A stretch of DNA of 64,000 bases, taken from the NCBI RefSeq assembly GCF_009914755.1, contig NC_060926.1. One strand, 5' to 3'. Below the pieces are notes generated by a model. That model did not search any database. It saw only the letters and a program-made list of their open reading frames with translations, and had not been told where the DNA came from. Source of the DNA: the human T2T-CHM13v2.0 reference genome, Homo sapiens. Shown one piece after another: positions 139 through 64,000 of the stretch (its first letter is position 1; each line of letters begins with the position of its first letter). The position numbers were made by a program, and so were the translations under genes.

Positions 139-1814
139 CCATCTAGTCATTTTAAAAAGAAATTCTTGGCATGTCATTCCATCACCGAATACTTAATTAA
201 ATATAAAAAATAAGAAACATTTGTTACATAGCCACAATATCATTATCATATCTATGACAGTAAAAATTTTTTAATATTATCTCATTTCCAGTTCATAATT
301 AAATTTCCCCCATTTTCTTGAACAACATCTTTCCATGTAGATCAATGGAATAGAATGGAGAATTCAGAAATAAACCCATACGTTCTTGGCCAATTGACAA
401 GATGTCAAATTTTGATAAGGGTGTCAAGATCATTCAAATGGGAAAGAATAGTCTCTTCAACAGAAGACCCACCCTGGGGTCCTTAATCTCCAGCATCAGA
501 CTCCAAGACCATTTGCAGAGATCATCCAGACAGCTCCCATCATGCCTCTGATGAATCCTTCACCATGTGCATCCACAGGGGTCCTGCAAATATTTTCTCA
601 CAGTCCGTTGAGTGACTTTTCTTACAAATACTTTATTTTAGAATAAATAGAGGTTTATAGCAAGGTTGCAACAAATAGTTCAGAGAATTCTTATCTACCC
701 TGTACCCGGTTTCCCCCATTGTTAAATGTTATGTTTCTATGGCACATCCATCACAACTCATTCACCAATATGACACATTATGATGAGCTAAAGTCTGTTT
801 CCTTCAGATTTCATTGATTTTTACTTAATATCCCTGTTCTTTTATGGGATCCCATTGATACCACCTGAAATGTAGTCATCATGTCTCCTTAGTCTCCTCC
901 AGCCTGTGACAGTTTCTCAGACTTTCCTTGTTTTTGGTGACTTGGGCAGTTTTGAGCAGTCCTGGTCAGGTGTCCTGTAGAATGTTCCTCTAGAATGTCA
1001 GTGTGTGTTTGCCTGACATTTTTATCATGGTTAAACTGGGGTTATAGGTTTTTAGTAGGAAGATGCGGAGGTCTTTTCTTGTTTTCTTGCATGTGAATAT
1101 TCAACTGTAGAAAAGAGTGGCCTTTCCTCCAATGCACTTCTTGTACCTTTGTAAAAACTTGGCTGTTCATACATCTGTGCATGTATTTCTAGACTTTGTA
1201 TTCTGCTCCATTGAAATATTTGTGAAATATTTGATTACTATAGCTGTGTAATAATCTTGAAATGAGGTAGTGTTACCTATTTTTTTCAAATTGTTTTTGC
1301 TATTGTAGGTCTGCTACATTACCACATGGATTTTAGAATAAGTTTGTTAGTTTGATTTTGATTGGGATTGTATTGAATTTATAGATCAACTGGGGAGAAA
1401 CAACATCTTAGCAATTTTGAATTTTCCAATTCATTAACATATCTATGTTAAGTGCCTCATCAGTGTTCTGTAGTTTTCAGTGTACAGTCTTTCATAATTT
1501 TTGTCAGATATATTCCTAAGTATTTCATGTTTTTGATGCTATTTAAGTGATATTTTTATTCCAATTTTTAATTGTTCATTGCTAGTATAGTTGACCCCTG
1601 AACAATGTGGGAATGAAGGGGACCAACCCGTGTGAAGTAGAAAATCCACACAGATCTTTTGATTCTCGAAAAACATAACTACTAACAACCATTTACCAAA
1701 AGCCTTACCAATAGTATAAACAGTCAATTAACACATATTTTGGATGTTATTAGTATTATATCCTGTATTATTACAATAAAGCAAACTAGAGAAAGGAAAA
1801 TGTTATTTAAAAAC

Positions 1815-12277: not shown

Positions 12278-13171
12278 AAGGCAAAGCATGGCTACTGTGA
12301 AAGAAGGGTAAAAACACAGAGATGGCATCACCTCTGACTTCCAGGAGTCCTCAGCAGACTGAGGGAGACAAGTACATATTTTCCTGAAAGAGGTCACTGG
12401 AGTGATGGTGTGTTTAGAATATAGAAGTAGAGCAGTCACAGAGAGGCAGCCCAGCAGAGTGTTCGCACAAGGACTGGGCCAGCAACTCCCCACTGCATGC
12501 AACGTATCTGAGGAAAGTCATTAAAATAGGTGATGGTCACTTTCCATCAAGTCCCTGGTATGGTCCATGGAGGCAGGGTTGTCAATCTCATTTTGGCATT
12601 TCAGAGGCCTCTCAGGGTTTGGATATGGAAGAAGACAACCAGCAATGATTATGCATTGCAGAGATGCAGGTGAGCCCCAGTTTCTTGCCAGTTGGGAGGT
12701 CAGTGCTAAGAGCCTTGCTGTCTTTCCCTGGAACATGAGATGCCAATTTCTTTCTGGACAGAGAGTATTTGGTTGGCTAAAGTCAAAATCTAAATTTTGC
12801 TTTGGGATAAATTCCAAAAATATTAGCATTATTCAAATTTACTTTCACTTTATCTTTCCGAATCTTCAAGGTCCAAAAGCATTGCTGAATAATTCTGTTT
12901 CTAAACTCACTTGCAGCGTGCTCTCCCTCCAAGGCGAAGACCATAATCTACTCTTGTCTGGAAATCATACAAGTAGGTATCTCAGCAAATGATACTCGTG
13001 TGTTATCGTTCTTATGAGTAAATCATTGGCAGTGAGTGTGATTTTTTTTTTTTTTATGAAAGGATAAATACACGCCCTCTATTGGGGTCAGGTTTTGTGC
13101 CTGTACTTCTTCCGCCTACTGTATCATAGCAGCTTAGAATCCCAGCTGCTGGCTCGGGCTGCAGTTCTCTC
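12278..13171 (+). promoter_or_regulatory. UGT1A10: UGT1A10 proximal promoter
   Basis: Paralogous to the 1A9 and 1A7 promoters. Contains HNF1-like GTAAATCATTGGC (13018-13030), a T14 tract (13042-13055), XRE core CACGC (13071-13075, -101) and Sp1-like tccgcc (~13111-13116). No canonical TATA box. Confidence 0.8.
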
Positions 13172-24575: not shown

Positions 24576-25716
<1,141 letters not shown>

Positions 25717-47750: not shown

Positions 47751-48210
47751 CAAGGAGTGCTCAGCAGACTGAGAGAGACAAGTACATATTTTCCTGAAGG
47801 AGGGCACTGGAGTGATGGCGTGTTTAGAATGTGCAAGTTGAGCGGTCACTGAGAGGCAGCTCAGCAGAGTGCTCTCGCAAGGATTGGGCGGGCAACTTCC
47901 CACTGCGTGCGATGTATCTTAGGAAAGCCATTTAAAATAGGAGACGGTTACTTTCCATCAAGTCCCTGGTATGGTCCATGGAAGCAGGGTTGTCAGTCTC
48001 ATTTCAGCATTTTAGAGGCTTCTCAGGGTTTGGAAATGGAAGAAGAGAAGCAGCAATATGTATGCATTGCAGAGACACAGGCGAGCCCCAATTTAGGAGG
48101 TTAGGAGGTCAGTGCTAAGGGCCTTGTTTTCTTTGCTTAGAGCATGAGTTGCCATCTTCTCTGGACAGAGAGTATTTGGTTGCCTAAAGGTAAAATCTAA
48201 ATTTTGCTCT

Positions 48211-52500: not shown

Positions 52501-53978
52501 AAATAAGAAAAATTTGTTACATAGCCACAATATCATTATCATATCTAAGACAATAAAAATTCTTTAATATTATCTCATTTACAGTCCATAATAAAATTTC
52601 CCCGGATTGTCTCACACAACATCTTTCCATACAGATCAATGGAATAGAATGGAGAATTCAGAAATAAACCCATACATATACATCCTTGGCCAATTGACTA
52701 GGTGCCAAAGTTTGACAAGTGTGTCAAGATCATTCAAATGGGAAAGAATAGTCTTTTCAACAGAAGACCCACCCTGGGGTCCTTGAGCTCCAGCGTCAGA
52801 CTCCAAAACCATTTGTGGAAATCATCCAGCCACCTCCCACCATGCCTCTGATGAATCCTTCACCGATGGATTCATCAGAAGCATGGTTGATGATGAATTC
52901 ACTGATGAATCACCCCTGTGTGCATCCACAGGGGTCCTGCAAATATTTTCTCACAGTCTGTTGAGTGACTTTTCTTACAAATACTTCATTGTAGAATAAA
53001 TATAGGATTATAGCAAGGTTACAACAAATAGTTTAGAGAATTTTCATCTACCCTGTGTCCAGTTTCCACCATTGTTAAATCTCATGTTTCTATGGCACAT
53101 CCATCACAACTCATTCACCAATATTGACGCATAATGATGAGCTAAAAGCTAAAGTCTGTTTCCTTCAGATTTCATTAATTTTTACTTAATTTCCCTGTTC
53201 TTTTATGGGATCCCAGTGATACCACCTGAAATGTAGTCATCATGTCTCCTTTGTCTCCTCCAGCCTGTGACGGTTTCTCAGACTCTCCTTGTTTTTAGTG
53301 ACTTGGGCAGTTTCGAGCAGTCCTAGTCAGGTGTCCTGTAGAATGTTCCTCTAGAATGTCAGTGTGTGTTTTGCCTGATGTTTTCATCGTGGTAAAACTG
53401 GGTTTATAGACTTTTGGTAGGAAGACACAGAGGTCTTTTCTTGTTTTCTTGCGTGTGAATATTCAACTGTAGAAAAACAGAACCTTTTCTCCACTGCATT
53501 GCCTTTGTACCTTTGTAAAAACTTGGTTGTTCATACATCTGTGCACGTATTTCTAGACTTTGTATTCTGTTCTGTTGATCTATTTGTGAAATATTTGATT
53601 ACTATAGCTGTGTAATAATCTATAAATGAGGTAGTGTTACCTCTAATTTTTTTTTTCAAATTGCTTTTGCTATTGGAGGTCTTTTGCATTACCATATGCA
53701 TTTTAAAATAAGTTCATTAATGTGTGCAAAAATCCTGCTAGGATTTTGATTGGGATTGTATTTTATTTATAGATCAACTGGGGAGAAACAACATCTTAGC
53801 AATTTTGAGTTTTCCAATTCATTAACATATCTTTTTATTTAGGTCCGTCATCAGTGCTCTGTAGTTTTCAATGTACAGTCTTTCACATCCTTTGTCAGAT
53901 ATATCCCTAAGTATATCATGTTTTTGATGCTATTTAAGTGGTATTTTTAATCCAGTTTTCAAGTGTTCATTGCTAGTA

Positions 53979-57085: not shown

Positions 57086-57718
57086 AGGAAAGTGACTAAG
57101 CAAATGTCTAGTACCAGTTAGGGTGTCCTGGAAGGAACCATCTTGTGCTTCTACAAGAATTATGCCCTGAGGTTGGCTGTTGAATCCCTCACGAAATGCT
57201 CCTCAGTGTGTTGCCTAACACACACTGCTGAGCTCACCCATTAAAATCTGCATGATGGAATTCAGCCCAATGCAATGAGAATTCCCATGGACTTCCTCTG
57301 TGCAAGGCAAAGCATGGGTGCTGTGGAAGGAGGATGAAAACAGGTAGAAGATGTAATCTCATCCTCAAGGGGTGCTCGGTAGAATGGAGGAAACAATACA
57401 TAGATTCCTGAAGATGAGCACCAAAGTGATTGGGGTGGGCCCATAGCAAAGGCCTGCAGCTCTGTTCAGAATGCAGAAGCAGAGTGGGCAGAGAGAGACA
57501 GCTCATTAGAGTGCTTGGGCAAGCATAGGGACGGCGACTCACCACTGCAGACAATGTATCTGAGGAAAGCCATTTAAAATAGGTGACAGTCACATTCCAT
57601 CAAATTTCTGGAAGGGTCCATGGAGGCAGGGTTGTCAATCTCATTACAGCATTTCAGAGGCCTCAGAAGATTTGGAAATGAAAAAAGACAAGCAGCACTT
57701 GTGGCTCACCTGTGTCAC

Positions 57719-57791
57719 AATTGTGGCTCACCTGTGTCTCTGCAATGCGCAAGTGAGCTGTGTATTGCAGAGACACAGGTGAGCCGCAATT
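57719..57791 (+). repeat. 33-bp inverted repeat (hairpin) with 7-nt loop
   Basis: aattgtggctcacctgtgtctctgcaatgcgca-agtgagc-tgtgtattgcagagacacaggtgagccgcaatt gives 30 Watson-Crick and 3 G-T pairs. Confidence 0.93.
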
Positions 57792-57900
57792 TCCTCCCAG
57801 TTAGGAGGTCAACGCTAAGACCCTTGCTCTCTTTCCGTCGAACATGAGATGCCAATTTCTTTCTGGGCAGAGGACAAAATAAAAATTGTCTATAAACTTT

Positions 57901-58203
57901 GGCCAGGTGTAGTGGCTCACGCCTGTAATCCCAGCATTTTGGGAGGCCGAGATGGGCAGATTGCCTGAGCTCAGGAGTTCGAGACCAGCCTGGGCAACAT
58001 GGTGAAACCCCGTCTCCACTAAAATACAAAAAGTTAGCTGGGCATGGCAGCGTGCGCCTGTAATCCCAGCTACTGAGGCTGAGGCAGGAGAATCGTTTGA
58101 ACCCAGGAAGTGGAGGTTGCAGTGAGCCTAGATCTTACCACTGCACTCCAGCCTGGATGACACAGTGAGACTCCATCTCAAAAAAAAAAAAAAAAAAAAA
58201 AAA
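57901..58203 (+). mobile_element. Alu (AluS) in the UGT1A7 promoter
   Basis: Dimeric Alu with a long pure A tail, absent from the 1A9 and 1A10 promoters. Confidence 0.95.
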
Positions 58204-59648
<1,445 letters not shown>

Positions 59649-61981: not shown

Positions 61982-64000
61982 TTAAAGTGGTTTTAATGAG
62001 AAAAAAAGAAAATCACTTCCACTTTTCTTGACTTGTTGGTGAATTACAGCAGAATTGATGGTTGAATCCAGTTATAAAGAATTCGAGCTGAATCTACACC
62101 ATCTAGGGCCAGTGCAGCTCTGGAGAACTGGGACTGGGATGTGGTTACAGCAAGAAAAGATCTATGCTTTCCCCATTGCTCTCGCATTCTGTTTTTGATC
62201 CAAATTCAAATTTACCTGTTACTGGGCAAGCCCAAGGCCTCCCTCCAAGATTATTTATTTCAACTTTTTATCATCAAAGTTTTCGAACATATACCAAGGA
62301 GAGGCTATGGCATAATGTGTACCCATATAGCCATTCTTAAGTTAAATAATTTTCAATATCTTGCTGTACTGCTTCGTCTTTCTCCATTTTTTCTTCCATT
62401 TTAAAGAAAAATTTTGACTTTTTGTTTTAAAGAAAATCTTGGCATGTTGTCTCATCACGAAATACTTCACTAAATATAAAAAATAAGGAAAATTTGTTTC
62501 ATAGACACAATACCTAAGACAATCAATAATTCTTTAATATTATCTCATTTTCAATCCATCATTAAATTTATCCTGATTGTCTCAAAAAAGTCTTTTATAT
62601 GTAGATCAATGGAATAGAATTTAAAGTCCAGAAATAATCCTGTACATCCTTTGCCTTGATTTTCATCATGGTGCCAAGAGCATTGAAATGGCAAAGAATA
62701 GTGTCTTCAGCAGAGGGTTCTGGGACAACTGCATATCCAAGTCCAAGAGAATGAAGTTGCACCCTTACCTTGTATCATATATAAAAATTAACTTGAAATG
62801 GATCAAAGACCTAAATAGAAAATCTAAAACTGTAAAACTCTTAGAAGAAAAAATTAGAAAAATATTTGTGACCTTGGATTTGGAAATGGTTTCTGAGATT
62901 TTTTTTTTTCTTGTACCAAAAGTACAAGAAACTAAAACAAGAAAAACAAGAGATAAATCTGACTTTATCAAAATGTTTTTATACAAAAGCTTTTGTATAT
63001 CAAAGGATACTATCAAGAGAATGAAAAGACAACTCGTGTGGGCGCCCTTATTAAGGTGTGCAGATAAACACACGCATGCTTGACATGGAGGCTCTCCCAT
63101 GAAACATCCTATTTTTTCCTTTCCTATGAAACTTTCTGAACAGGTGAGCCCAGGTGGAGCCTCCACCTGCGTTAGAACCTAACCTTTCCGTGGCTTTCTG
63201 AAATCCCTGGTTTCAGAAGTTAGTGTGGATTACTGCTGCTTTCTTTGACTGTCTCTCTCTCTCCTTCAATCTATCTTGATAATGTGATATCAAACATGAT
63301 ACACTACCTCTTTGGCCCACTCAGGATATTCTGGTGGTGCCCTCTGGCCTGCACCCTCCCACCGGCTATGAAGGTCAACCTCTTGCCTTCCCTAGCCTCA
63401 CTGGCTTTATTTTATGCAACACTCCAACTCTCCTCTTTCCACCTCCCCTGTTACTTTTCCCTACCTATTTTATTCCTCTTTTCTATCTCCTTCCCCACCT
63501 ATGTCTTTCCTTTCTGTCACTTTTTCTGCATGATTCCTGCCCCAGAGGGGTCAACAAGAAAGGGCATCCCACTGGCTGACTCATGCAGGGAAGCTGTCAG
63601 TAATTAATTAGCAAGGCAGGGAAGTTGTACCCCAAGTCTTGGTTTCAACACTAGAGGACTTTAGGAGGTGGTTCAATGTAGTGTTTGAGCACGCGGACCC
63701 TGGAGTCCTCCAAGCCTGATTTCATAAGTACTTCAGCTGTGACACTTGCGTAAACTTGGGTAAAAACTCAGCGTTATCTAGATTAAATATGATAATACAT
63801 GCAGATGACTGGCATGTGGATATGAATCAGCAATACCCGTAATTGGGTGGGTGATATGCATTTTCCAGCACAATTATCTCCAACCTCCACAAGATTAATG
63901 ATCTTAACCATGCATTCAGACTCTCTTCAGAACAACATGGTGAGATATCAATGTTGTCTTCTTGATGCAAGTTTCCCTTGAATGATTTAAACTTCAGATG

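What the first reader, a model, noticed from the sequence alone, without database searches (positions are those of the whole stretch)
57699..57791. UGT1A7-specific 33-bp hairpin made by inverted duplication, fully pairable as + strand RNA
Seen: arm 57719-57751 pairs with 57759-57791 around a 7-nt loop. All three non-Watson-Crick positions are G-U on the + strand, so the 73-nt stem has no bulge. An extra direct copy (ttgtggctcacctgtgtc, 57699-57716) precedes it. The 1A9 (~48061-48093) and 1A10 (~12651-12683) promoters have only the right arm. Inference: a replication template-switch origin. It lies in the intron of upstream-promoter (1A8/1A10/1A9) pre-mRNAs and has pre-miRNA dimensions. It could be a Drosha or ADAR substrate, or a cruciform ~800 bp upstream of the 1A7 ATG. 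It also triples a CACCTG E-box.
Basis: partly seen in the sequence, partly recalled or inferred. Interest (0 to 1): 0.7.

Follow-up and report, generated by a model that had tools for sequence, protein, structure and literature searches.

The report
Inverted-duplication hairpin upstream of UGT1A7
A real and very stable 73-base hairpin about 800 bases upstream of the human UGT1A7 first exon arose when neighbouring sequence was copied backwards, a common replication error, and nothing found here shows that it has a function.

Summary
Arms 57719-57751 and 57759-57791 pair over 33 positions: 30 Watson-Crick pairs plus 3 G.U on the + strand (A.C on the - strand). The loop is 7 nt. The RNA fold gives -75.2 kcal/mol, z = -11.2, and 0 of 200 shuffles fold as well.

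Five paralogous upstream regions (UGT1A9, 1A10, 1A8, 1A11P, 1A12P) carry only the right arm. All five lack the same 56 nt. Of the 50 copied bases, 46 are the reverse complement of the right arm. Removing one 22-nt tandem unit restores the ancestral junction, with an AAT microhomology.

The best reading is therefore a template-switch inverted duplication (four-point type 1-4-3-2), then a 22-nt tandem duplication, then about five point changes.

No evidence of function was found. Rfam has no family at its gathering score, the RefSeq table lists no MIR gene, and nothing is in print. The loop is shorter than pri-miRNAs prefer. The "all G.U" pattern has a neutral probability of 0.03-0.06.

Published work counts 6,054 such miRNA-sized template-switch hairpins in human genic regions, and 0.9% of them are annotated miRNAs. 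A second hairpin of the same kind lies 5 kb away in this window.

This is an ordinary new member of a known kind. Whether it has any function remains untested.

The parts
57697..57718 (+). First 22-nt tandem unit.
   Evidence: It differs from unit 57719-57740 at 2 of 22 positions (repeat family D1). Conceptually removing it restores the paralog-type junction ...GCAGC|AAT.... It is absent from all 5 paralogs.
57719..57751 (+). Left arm: the new, inverted copy of the right arm. It holds CACCTG at 57729-57734.
   Evidence: 30 of 33 positions equal the reverse complement of 57759-57791. It is absent from 1A9, 1A10, 1A8, 1A11P and 1A12P. BLAST of the 1A9 upstream region skips 57698-57760.
57752..57758 (+). 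7-nt loop (AGTGAGC).
   Evidence: 57752-57755 has no counterpart in the paralogs and is not explained by copying. 57756-57758 aligns with paralog sequence.
57759..57791 (+). Right arm: ancestral sequence present upstream of all six first exons compared. It holds CAGGTG at 57776-57781.
   Evidence: Aligned in all 6 sequences. Per-position table. The genome search finds the 1A12P copy of this arm only.
57793..57808 (+). Small 5-bp flanking stem directly 3' of the hairpin.
   Evidence: Present in the minimum-energy and centroid folds. Its significance was not tested.
57870..58215 (+). Context: a 1A7-specific Alu between the hairpin and the 1A7 promoter.
   Evidence: Metazoa_SRP-like match at 57902-58018. 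Present only in 1A7 in alignment A3. Skipped by BLAST between 57872 and 58208. Masked in the hub's list.
58550..59441 (+). Context: UGT1A7 first exon.
   Evidence: The hub's RefSeq table. It aligns with the 1A9 and 1A10 first exons.

Best explanation
The hairpin is the scar of a short-range template switch during DNA synthesis.

Step 1. On the UGT1A7 lineage, a nascent + strand ending in ...GCAGCAAT left its template. It re-annealed through AAT/ATT microhomology at 57789-57791 and copied about 33 nt of the + strand backwards, from 57791 to 57759. It then returned to its template. In the four-point model of Loytynoja and Goldman this is order 1-4-3-2, the type that creates an inverted repeat.

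Step 2. A 22-nt tandem duplication later copied the junction and the outer part of the new arm (57697-57718 from 57719-57740).

Step 3. About five point substitutions followed: three between the arms and two between the tandem units.

Today the 73-nt stem-loop is transcribed passively, inside intron 1 of UGT1A8, 1A10 and 1A9 pre-mRNAs. It most likely has no dedicated function. It is one of thousands of such hairpins in human genes.

Shown here: the anatomy, the absence from 5 paralogs, the reverse-complement identity, the restored junction and the arm differences. Inferred: the switch mechanism, the order of events, the age and the neutrality.
For: Anatomy and significance.

Insertion relative to the paralogs: 56 alignment columns (57700-57755) are present only in 1A7 and absent in 5 of 5 paralogs. 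BLAST with the 1A9 region independently skips 57698-57760.

Reverse-complement origin: 46 of 50 copied positions match the reverse complement of the right arm (16 of 17 plus 30 of 33). Only 6 nt (AC and AGTG) are unexplained.

Junction: removing one 22-nt unit gives ...GCAGC|AATTG..., the GCAGCAAT seen in 1A9. 1A10 reads CCAGCAAT.

The copy is of 1A7-type sequence. At 57760 both arms share G, whereas 4 of 5 paralogs have A. At 57786 neither arm has the C of 4 of 5 paralogs.

Polarised changes: 57763 C>T in the right arm and 57749 A>G in the left arm. In each case the unchanged arm matches 5 of 5 paralogs.

Age: arm divergence is 3 of 33 and tandem-unit divergence 2 of 22, against 18-22% between 1A7 and its paralogs over 213-221 shared sites. 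P(5 or fewer differences of 55) is 0.02-0.07 if the repeat were as old as the paralog split. P(3 or more arm differences) is 0.001-0.016 if it were younger than 6.5 My, using assumed rates of 0.5-1.2e-9 per site per year.

Not a repeat family: the whole-genome search finds only this locus and the right arm upstream of 1A12P.

Known kind: the four-point model passages in PMC5453318 give type 1-4-3-2 as 31% of events. PMC10710096 section 9 reports 6,054 miRNA-sized template-switch hairpins in genic regions of the human lineage, of which 57 (0.9%) are annotated miRNAs.

A second paralog-specific inverted duplication lies at 52865-52917 in the same window.

No sign of function: Rfam's best hairpin match is mir-942 at 33.9 bits, against a gathering score of 100. 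The neutral chance of three pairing-preserving changes on the + strand is 0.03-0.06.
Against: A single template switch does not explain everything. A second event (the tandem duplication) and 6 unexplained nt are needed, so the event history is a reconstruction.

The insertion is polarised with human paralogs, not with orthologues from other primates. The paralog tree is poorly resolved (1 of 5 inner branches well supported). A tree with 1A7 outside all the others is not rejected (p-AU 0.11).

All three arm differences keep RNA pairing on the transcribed + strand. That has a nominal neutral probability of only 3-6%, so weak purifying selection on the RNA stem cannot be excluded.

Neutrality is an argument from absence. 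No small-RNA, editing, chromatin or population data could be consulted. The 33-bp stem does fit the recalled 11 + 22 bp Drosha/DGCR8 measuring rule.
Confidence: 0.7

Rival explanations
1. The hairpin is an unannotated, primate-specific intronic pri-miRNA, or a Dicer or ADAR substrate. It would be released or edited from the long intron 1 of UGT1A9 (liver, kidney) and UGT1A8/10 (gut) transcripts.
For: [quoted passage not shown] The 33-bp uninterrupted stem is very stable as + strand RNA. All three arm differences are G.U on that strand. According to PMC10710096, template-switch hairpins in sense-strand introns are a documented source of new primate miRNAs: 81 of 99 intragenic cases are sense-intronic. 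UGT1A9 is stably expressed in liver and kidney (PMC8147421 passage).
Against: Only 0.9% (57 of 6,054) of such hairpins are annotated miRNAs. This one has no MIR gene in the RefSeq table and no Rfam family at gathering score. The loop is 7 nt, against a preference for 10 nt or more. By recalled motif rules, the basal UG is absent at -14/-13 and CNNC lies at +11/+12 rather than +16 to +18. No paper was found. The G.U pattern has a neutral probability of 0.03-0.06 for the + strand and 0.06-0.12 for either strand. The + strand also carries a G+T excess of 53.2%, consistent with a recalled transcription-linked bias towards exactly C>T and A>G changes.
Confidence: 0.06
2. The insertion changed UGT1A7 transcription. 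It turned one CAGGTG into three CACCTG/CAGGTG boxes within 75 bp, about 800 bp upstream. This could be a binding cluster for E-box factors such as ZEB, Snail or E-protein bHLH factors (recalled specificities), or it could form a cruciform. Either could contribute to 1A7's distinct tissue pattern.
For: Three boxes lie at 57707, 57729 and 57776, against one in 1A10 and none in 1A9. Only 2 places in the 64-kb window reach 3 boxes in 100 bp, and there are 52 boxes in all. The element sits in the conserved upstream block shared by the paralogs. Inverted-repeat expansions by template switching at yeast promoters changed GRE2 expression (PMC13100816, abstract only). The DNA stem is stable as a single strand.
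Against: The triplication is an automatic by-product of the duplications, so it is not independent evidence. RefSeq lists no functional element here (hub). A 1A7-specific Alu now separates the element from the promoter. No paper links an E-box or inverted repeat to UGT1A7. No binding, chromatin or reporter data could be consulted.
Confidence: 0.08
3. The inverted repeat is older than the split of the UGT1A7-13 first-exon family. It would have been lost once, by deletion of one arm, in the ancestor of the other paralogs. It is then retained in 1A7 rather than gained there.
For: A tree in which all the other paralogs form one clade excluding 1A7 is not rejected (p-AU 0.11, log-likelihood only 1.45 lower). 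The tree has 1 well-supported inner branch of 5, and its outgroup branch is very long. Palindrome arms are known to be deletion-prone (recalled).
Against: The arms and tandem units differ at 5 of 55 positions. About 10-12 differences are expected at the 18-22% paralog divergence, giving P = 0.02-0.07. The best tree does not place 1A7 outermost: it groups with 1A12P/1A13P at 65/62 support, and 1A12P lacks the insertion. The left arm carries the 1A7-type state at 57760.
Confidence: 0.1
4. The hairpin is a palindromic transposable element (MITE-like) or a chance inverted repeat.
For: Many human hairpins and some miRNAs derive from palindromic DNA-transposon remnants (recalled). An Alu lies 80 nt away.
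Against: The right arm is ancestral, single-copy paralog sequence, and the left arm is its copy. The whole-genome search gives no other copies apart from this locus and the 1A12P right arm, although the tool calls its counts lower bounds. The stretch is not masked as a repeat (hub). 0 of 200 shuffles fold as well. 0 of 100 shuffled windows match a 25-nt arm segment (57767-57791) even once.
Confidence: 0.01

Closest known systems
Short-range template-switch mutations, four-point model, type 1-4-3-2 (Loytynoja and Goldman 2017, PMC5453318; passages read)
   Same: A stretch of new sequence is the reverse complement of directly adjacent sequence. The ancestral state (here, the paralogs) shows no pre-existing repeat. 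The result is an inverted repeat able to form a hairpin. There is microhomology at the jump.
   Different: The copied fragment (33 nt) needs a further 22-nt tandem duplication and 6 unexplained nt. The event is old (3 arm differences). It was polarised with paralogs, not with sister species as in the published scans. It was not found in the readable supplements of three such scans. That negative is weak: the look-ups used 'UGT1A' and coordinate prefixes recalled from memory, and some files were not searched.
Template-switch-generated primate miRNA genes and the 6,054 miRNA-sized template-switch hairpins in human genic regions (Monttinen, Frilander and Loytynoja 2023, PMC10710096; abstract, sections 9 and 15, passages and supplements searched)
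   Same: Sense-strand intronic location, near-perfect stem made in one step, and a size near that of a pri-miRNA stem.
   Different: No miRNA annotation, no Rfam family and no expression evidence. The 7-nt loop is below the stated preference of 10 nt or more. It belongs with the 99% of such hairpins that are not known genes.
Inverted-repeat expansion by template switching at yeast promoters (GRE2 case; PMC13100816, abstract only)
   Same: A template-switch-type inverted repeat created upstream of a gene, multiplying a potential transcription-factor site.
   Different: The yeast cases lie within confirmed factor-binding sites, and one was tested by genome editing. Here no binding or expression effect is known, and the element is about 800 bp from the start with an Alu in between.
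Quasi-palindrome correction (Ripley model, as described in PMC5453318 and PMC10710096)
   Same: Strand switching within or between strands at inverted repeats.
   Different: The classic model perfects an existing near-palindrome. Here the paralogs show no pre-existing left arm, so the repeat was created de novo.

Membership tests
Template-switch (four-point model) inverted duplication | The new sequence is the reverse complement of nearby sequence on the same chromosome | tested here: met
   46 of 50 copied positions match the reverse complement of 57759-57791. Arms are 91% complementary.
Template-switch (four-point model) inverted duplication | The repeat is absent in the ancestral or outgroup state | tested here: inconclusive
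   It is absent from 5 of 5 human paralogs. No orthologous primate sequence was available. The paralog tree does not fix the polarity (p-AU 0.11). Arm divergence below paralog divergence favours a later gain (P 0.02-0.07).
Template-switch (four-point model) inverted duplication | One switch-and-return event explains the whole mutation cluster | tested here: not met
   An additional 22-nt tandem duplication and 6 unexplained nt (AC, AGTG) are needed. The core 33-nt copy fits order 1-4-3-2 (for the definition).
Template-switch (four-point model) inverted duplication | Microhomology at the switch point (usual, but not required by the model) | tested here: met
   With one tandem unit removed, the junction reads ...GCAGC|AATTG.... 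AAT is shared between the ancestral upstream sequence and the reverse complement of the right-arm end.
Canonical pri-miRNA / miRNA gene | Stem of about 35 bp | tested here: met
   33 consecutive pairs including 3 G.U. The preference is quoted from the PMC10710096 introduction.
Canonical pri-miRNA / miRNA gene | Unstructured apical loop of 10 nt or more | tested here: not met
   The loop is 7 nt. Two G.U pairs next to the loop could let it breathe.
Canonical pri-miRNA / miRNA gene | Basal UG and downstream CNNC at their usual offsets (rules recalled, not read here) | tested here: not met
   CA lies at -14/-13. In the flank counted from the assumed 3' cut, CNNC starts at +2 (inside the stem), +11 and +12, not at +16 to +18. 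The result depends on where the basal junction is assumed to be.
Canonical pri-miRNA / miRNA gene | Match to a curated miRNA family or annotation | tested here: not met
   The best Rfam hairpin matches are mir-942 at 33.9 bits (gathering score 100) and mir-3660 at 29.7 (gathering score 70), both on the - strand. The hub's RefSeq table has no MIR gene. miRBase and MirGeneDB were not available.
Canonical pri-miRNA / miRNA gene | ~22-nt reads with defined ends and 2-nt 3' overhangs | not testable with these tools
   No small-RNA data were available.
ADAR (A-to-I editing) substrate | Double-stranded RNA of a few tens of bp within a transcribed region | tested here: met
   A 33-bp stem on the sense strand of intron 1 of UGT1A8/10/9 (hub spans). 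The length requirement is recalled.
ADAR (A-to-I editing) substrate | Observed A-to-G mismatches between RNA and DNA | not testable with these tools
   No RNA-seq data or editing catalogue were available.
Cruciform-forming inverted repeat | Long arms with a short spacer | tested here: met
   33-nt arms, 7-nt spacer and 3 mismatches. Single-stranded DNA fold -39.7 kcal/mol, z = -9.66.
Cruciform-forming inverted repeat | Extrusion in supercoiled DNA or in vivo | not testable with these tools
   This needs nuclease or chemical probing.
Palindromic transposon (MITE-like) | Many dispersed copies in the genome | tested here: not met
   The genome search found this locus on both strands plus the right arm upstream of 1A12P only. 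The tool notes that its counts are lower bounds.
E-box factor binding cluster | CACCTG/CAGGTG motifs present | tested here: met
   Three lie within 75 bp at 57707, 57729 and 57776.
E-box factor binding cluster | Factor occupancy or a regulatory effect | not testable with these tools
   No ChIP or reporter data were available. Literature searches found nothing on this site.

The most novel reading that the evidence does not exclude
The hairpin is a young, unannotated, primate-specific small-RNA gene made in one step by template switching. It would be processed from the roughly 100-kb intron 1 of UGT1A9, 1A8 and 1A10 transcripts in liver, kidney and gut. Its RNA stem would be kept pairable by selection, with all three arm changes being G.U on the sense strand. 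Detoxification-gene transcription would then be coupled to a new regulatory RNA.
Probability: 0.04. Interest if true: 0.5.

Novelty: new member of a known kind. Interest (0 to 1): 0.2.

Why it matters
The locus is a clean, datable example of how replication template switching makes a complete RNA-foldable hairpin in one step inside a transcribed gene. Unusually, it can be polarised by five in-genome paralogs rather than by other species. The UGT1A7-13 first-exon array therefore offers a natural before-and-after series.

If the hairpin proved to be processed, edited or bound, it would be a lineage-specific regulatory addition to a pharmacogenetically important locus. The present evidence points instead to one more of the thousands of inert template-switch hairpins.

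There is also a practical point. The perfect stem and the tandem copy can disturb short-read mapping, PCR and variant calling in the UGT1A7 upstream region.

Tried and rejected
Rfam. An E-value scan of 57400-58100 gave only generic hairpin matches far below gathering scores, plus Alu/SRP matches.

Transposon or repeat-family origin. Rejected by the genome search and by the paralog alignment.

Earlier findings of this scan.

Literature.
- 'UGT1A7' + promoter + 'inverted repeat': 0 papers.
- 'UGT1A7' + promoter + 'E-box': 4 papers, none about this site judging by title and abstract.
- 'UGT1A7' + luciferase + upstream + HNF4: 4 papers. Only the review PMC8147421 was looked at. By term search, its main text has no occurrence of 'intron', 'hairpin', 'host gene' or 'E-box'.
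- A 19-nt stretch of the right arm as text: 0 papers.
- 'UGT1A' + 'intron 1' + 'novel miRNA': 1 irrelevant paper.

Supplement look-ups. I searched for 'UGT1A' in PMC10710096 (3 files). I searched for 'UGT1A' plus coordinate prefixes recalled from memory for other assemblies in PMC7954356 (6 files), PMC5453318 (8 files, 1 not searched) and PMC9435742 (22 files, 11 not searched). All gave 0 occurrences. These are weak negatives: the prefixes are recalled, and the list of 6,054 hairpins is not among the files held.

Rooting the paralog tree to polarise the indel. The tree is unresolved, the outgroup branch is very long, and the AU test gives p = 0.11. 1A13P could not be used for the upstream comparison because it has no homologous upstream segment.

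Explaining the loop by re-copying of ancestral sequence. No clean solution was found, so 4-6 nt are left unexplained.

Full report
**1. The observation**

The repeat finder reports arms 57719-57751 and 57759-57791, each 33 nt, 91% complementary, with 7 nt between them. It also reports a direct-repeat family in which 57696-57716 and 57718-57738 are 95% identical.

A position-by-position check gives 30 Watson-Crick pairs of 33. The other three (57724/57786, 57747/57763, 57749/57761) are G.U on the + strand and A.C on the - strand.

Fold results:
- + strand RNA, 113 nt: -75.2 kcal/mol, 32 of the 33 pairs in the minimum-energy structure, z = -11.16, 0 of 200 shuffles as stable.
- - strand RNA: -60.9 kcal/mol, z = -8.15, with internal loops at the A.C positions.
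- Single-stranded DNA: -39.7 kcal/mol, z = -9.66.
- The stem survives in a 401-nt context, in both the minimum-energy and centroid structures.

It is the longest of six close inverted repeats of 20 nt or more in the 64-kb window.

**2. Origin**

I aligned the region with the homologous upstream blocks of UGT1A9 and UGT1A10 from the window, and of UGT1A8, UGT1A11P and UGT1A12P fetched from the same chromosome. All five paralogs carry the right arm. All five lack the same 56 alignment columns, 57700-57755 in 1A7. A BLAST of the 1A9 upstream-plus-exon segment independently aligns 57608-57697 and 57761-57872 and skips what lies between.

Of the 56 extra bases, 50 are copies. 57700-57716 matches the reverse complement of 57772-57788 at 16 of 17 positions. 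57719-57751 matches the reverse complement of 57759-57791 at 30 of 33. Only AC (57717-57718) and AGTG (57752-57755) are unexplained.

The two left-hand copies form a 22-nt tandem repeat, 57697-57718 and 57719-57740, with 2 differences of 22. If one unit is conceptually removed, the junction reads ...GCAGC|AATTG.... This recovers the GCAGCAAT seen in 1A9 (1A10 reads CCAGCAAT). It also shows that the inverted copy begins at an AAT shared with the reverse complement of the right-arm end.

This is the pattern of a short-range template switch. In the four-point model, the nascent strand leaves at point 1, copies fragment 2 to 3 in reverse complement and returns at point 4. [quoted passage not shown] A second, simpler event (tandem duplication) and later point changes complete the structure.

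The element is not a transposon. The whole-genome search returns only this locus on both strands and the right arm upstream of 1A12P.

**3. Direction and age of the changes**

The paralogs polarise two of the three arm differences:
- At 57761/57749 the right arm keeps the T of 5 of 5 paralogs, so the left arm changed (A>G on the + strand).
- At 57763/57747 the left arm keeps the state of 5 of 5 paralogs, so the right arm changed (C>T on the + strand).
- At 57786/57724 both left-hand copies agree with each other and with 1A11P. The right arm has G and four paralogs have C, so this difference stays ambiguous.

At 57760 both arms share G where 4 of 5 paralogs have A. The copy was therefore made from 1A7-type sequence.

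Arm divergence (3 of 33) and tandem-unit divergence (2 of 22) are about half the 18-22% divergence between the 1A7 block and its paralogs. If the repeat were as old as the paralog split, 5 or fewer differences in 55 sites would have P = 0.02-0.07. If it were younger than the human-chimpanzee split, 3 or more arm differences would have P = 0.001-0.016, using assumed rates of 0.5-1.2e-9 per site per year. So the event is probably tens of millions of years old and shared with other primates. This is an inference that only orthologous sequences can test.

The polarity "gain in 1A7" is not proven by the paralog tree. With the proximal promoter plus exon 1 of seven paralogs and 1A6 as a very distant outgroup, only 1 of 5 inner branches is well supported. 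1A7 groups weakly with 1A12P/1A13P (65/62). A tree with 1A7 outside all the others is not rejected (p-AU 0.11).

**4. Is there evidence of function?**

None was found, though most direct tests were out of reach.

- RNA families. No Rfam family reaches its gathering score. The best hairpin matches are generic ones on the - strand: mir-942 at 33.9 bits against 100, and mir-3660 at 29.7 against 70. The RefSeq table supplied with the finding lists no MIR gene or functional element.
- Dimensions. The 33-bp stem is close to the 35 bp preferred for pri-miRNAs. The 7-nt loop is below the preferred 10 nt or more (PMC10710096 introduction).
- Motifs. By rules I recall but did not read here, a basal UG is missing and CNNC lies at +11/+12 rather than +16 to +18 from the presumed cut.
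- The G.U pattern. In a neutral simulation of three substitutions on a perfect 33-bp stem, all pairs stay intact on the + strand in 3.2-5.9% of trials and on either strand in 6.5-11.9%. All three changes are of the C>T or A>G type on the + strand. That strand has a G+T excess of 53.2% and a T-over-A skew of 0.107 across the window. This agrees with a transcription-linked mutational asymmetry that I recall from the literature. Such a bias would raise the neutral expectation further.
- Base rate. PMC10710096 (section 9) counts 53,666 putative template-switch events in human genic regions since the primate ancestor. Of these, 6,054 made miRNA-sized hairpins, and only 57 (0.9%) of those are annotated miRNAs.
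- A local control. The same window holds a second hairpin of the same kind. At 52865-52917 a 53-nt segment is absent from the paralogous stretch near 539-564. It begins with a 23-nt reverse-complement copy of the 23 nt before it.

**5. The promoter reading**

The duplications turned one CAGGTG into three CACCTG/CAGGTG boxes, at 57707, 57729 and 57776. The matching stretch has one box in 1A10 and none in 1A9. Only two places in the window reach three boxes in 100 bp, out of 52 boxes in all.

This is automatic, given the copying. The element is 795 nt from the annotated 1A7 start, but about 335-345 nt of that distance is a 1A7-specific Alu. A yeast study shows that inverted-repeat expansion at promoters can change expression (PMC13100816, abstract), so the idea is legitimate. 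No paper or annotation connects this site with UGT1A7 regulation.

**6. What is known, and novelty**

The class is established: template-switch hairpins, some of which become primate miRNAs (PMC5453318, PMC10710096). I found no description of this particular hairpin. Five full-text searches found nothing on this site: two returned no papers, and nine papers from the other three were irrelevant by title and abstract (one review term-searched). Four supplement look-ups also found nothing. The supplement look-ups are weak negatives, as explained under Tried and rejected.

I file it as a new member of a known kind. Its membership of "template-switch inverted duplication" rests on reverse-complement identity and absence from the paralogs. 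The strict single-event criterion is not met, and the outgroup criterion was tested only with paralogs.

**7. Verdict**

- Observation: confirmed.
- Origin by inverted duplication: about 0.9.
- Specifically gained on the 1A7 lineage after the paralog split: about 0.85.
- No dedicated function: about 0.8.
- The combined best explanation: 0.7.
- The boldest surviving reading, a young unannotated small-RNA gene riding in UGT1A intron 1: about 0.04.
- Interest: low, 0.2. The locus is a neat, paralog-polarised textbook example rather than a surprise.

Noticed in passing
window 52839-52917 (paralogous stretch at about 539-564): A second template-switch-like hairpin. Arms 52839-52861 and 52865-52887 are 23 nt, 91% complementary, with a 3-nt loop; RNA fold -32.4 kcal/mol. 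The right arm opens a 53-nt segment (52865-52917) that is absent from the paralogous copy near window 539. That copy has only the left arm, with 1 mismatch.
   Followed up: partly
window 57870-58215: An Alu with a poly-A tail of about 24 nt is present upstream of UGT1A7 only. It is absent from 1A9 and 1A10. It roughly doubles the distance between the conserved upstream block and the 1A7 start. Its 5' end contains GTGGCTCAC...CCTGT, which resembles the hairpin's left arm by chance and could confuse short-read mapping.
   Followed up: partly
window 12550-12770 and L004:410-640: The UGT1A10 and UGT1A8 upstream blocks differ at only 12 of 221 sites (5.4%), against 15-22% for the other paralog pairs. 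This points to a much more recent duplication or to gene conversion between them.
   Followed up: no
window 24576-25674: UGT1A13P has exon-1 homology only (24576-25089 and 25414-25674, interrupted by a masked repeat) and no homologous upstream block. In the tree it is the close sister of UGT1A12P (support 100/100).
   Followed up: partly
whole window: The + (sense) strand has T over A by a skew of 0.107 and G+T = 53.2%, with GC skew near zero. This is consistent with long-term transcription of the UGT1A complex locus from this strand.
   Followed up: no
window 63141-63240: This is the only other place in the window with three CACCTG/CAGGTG boxes within 100 bp.
   Followed up: no
window 1083-1114 and 53442-53479: Two overlapping-arm palindromes share nearly the same sequence. 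They are probably copies of one paralogous or repeated segment.
   Followed up: no
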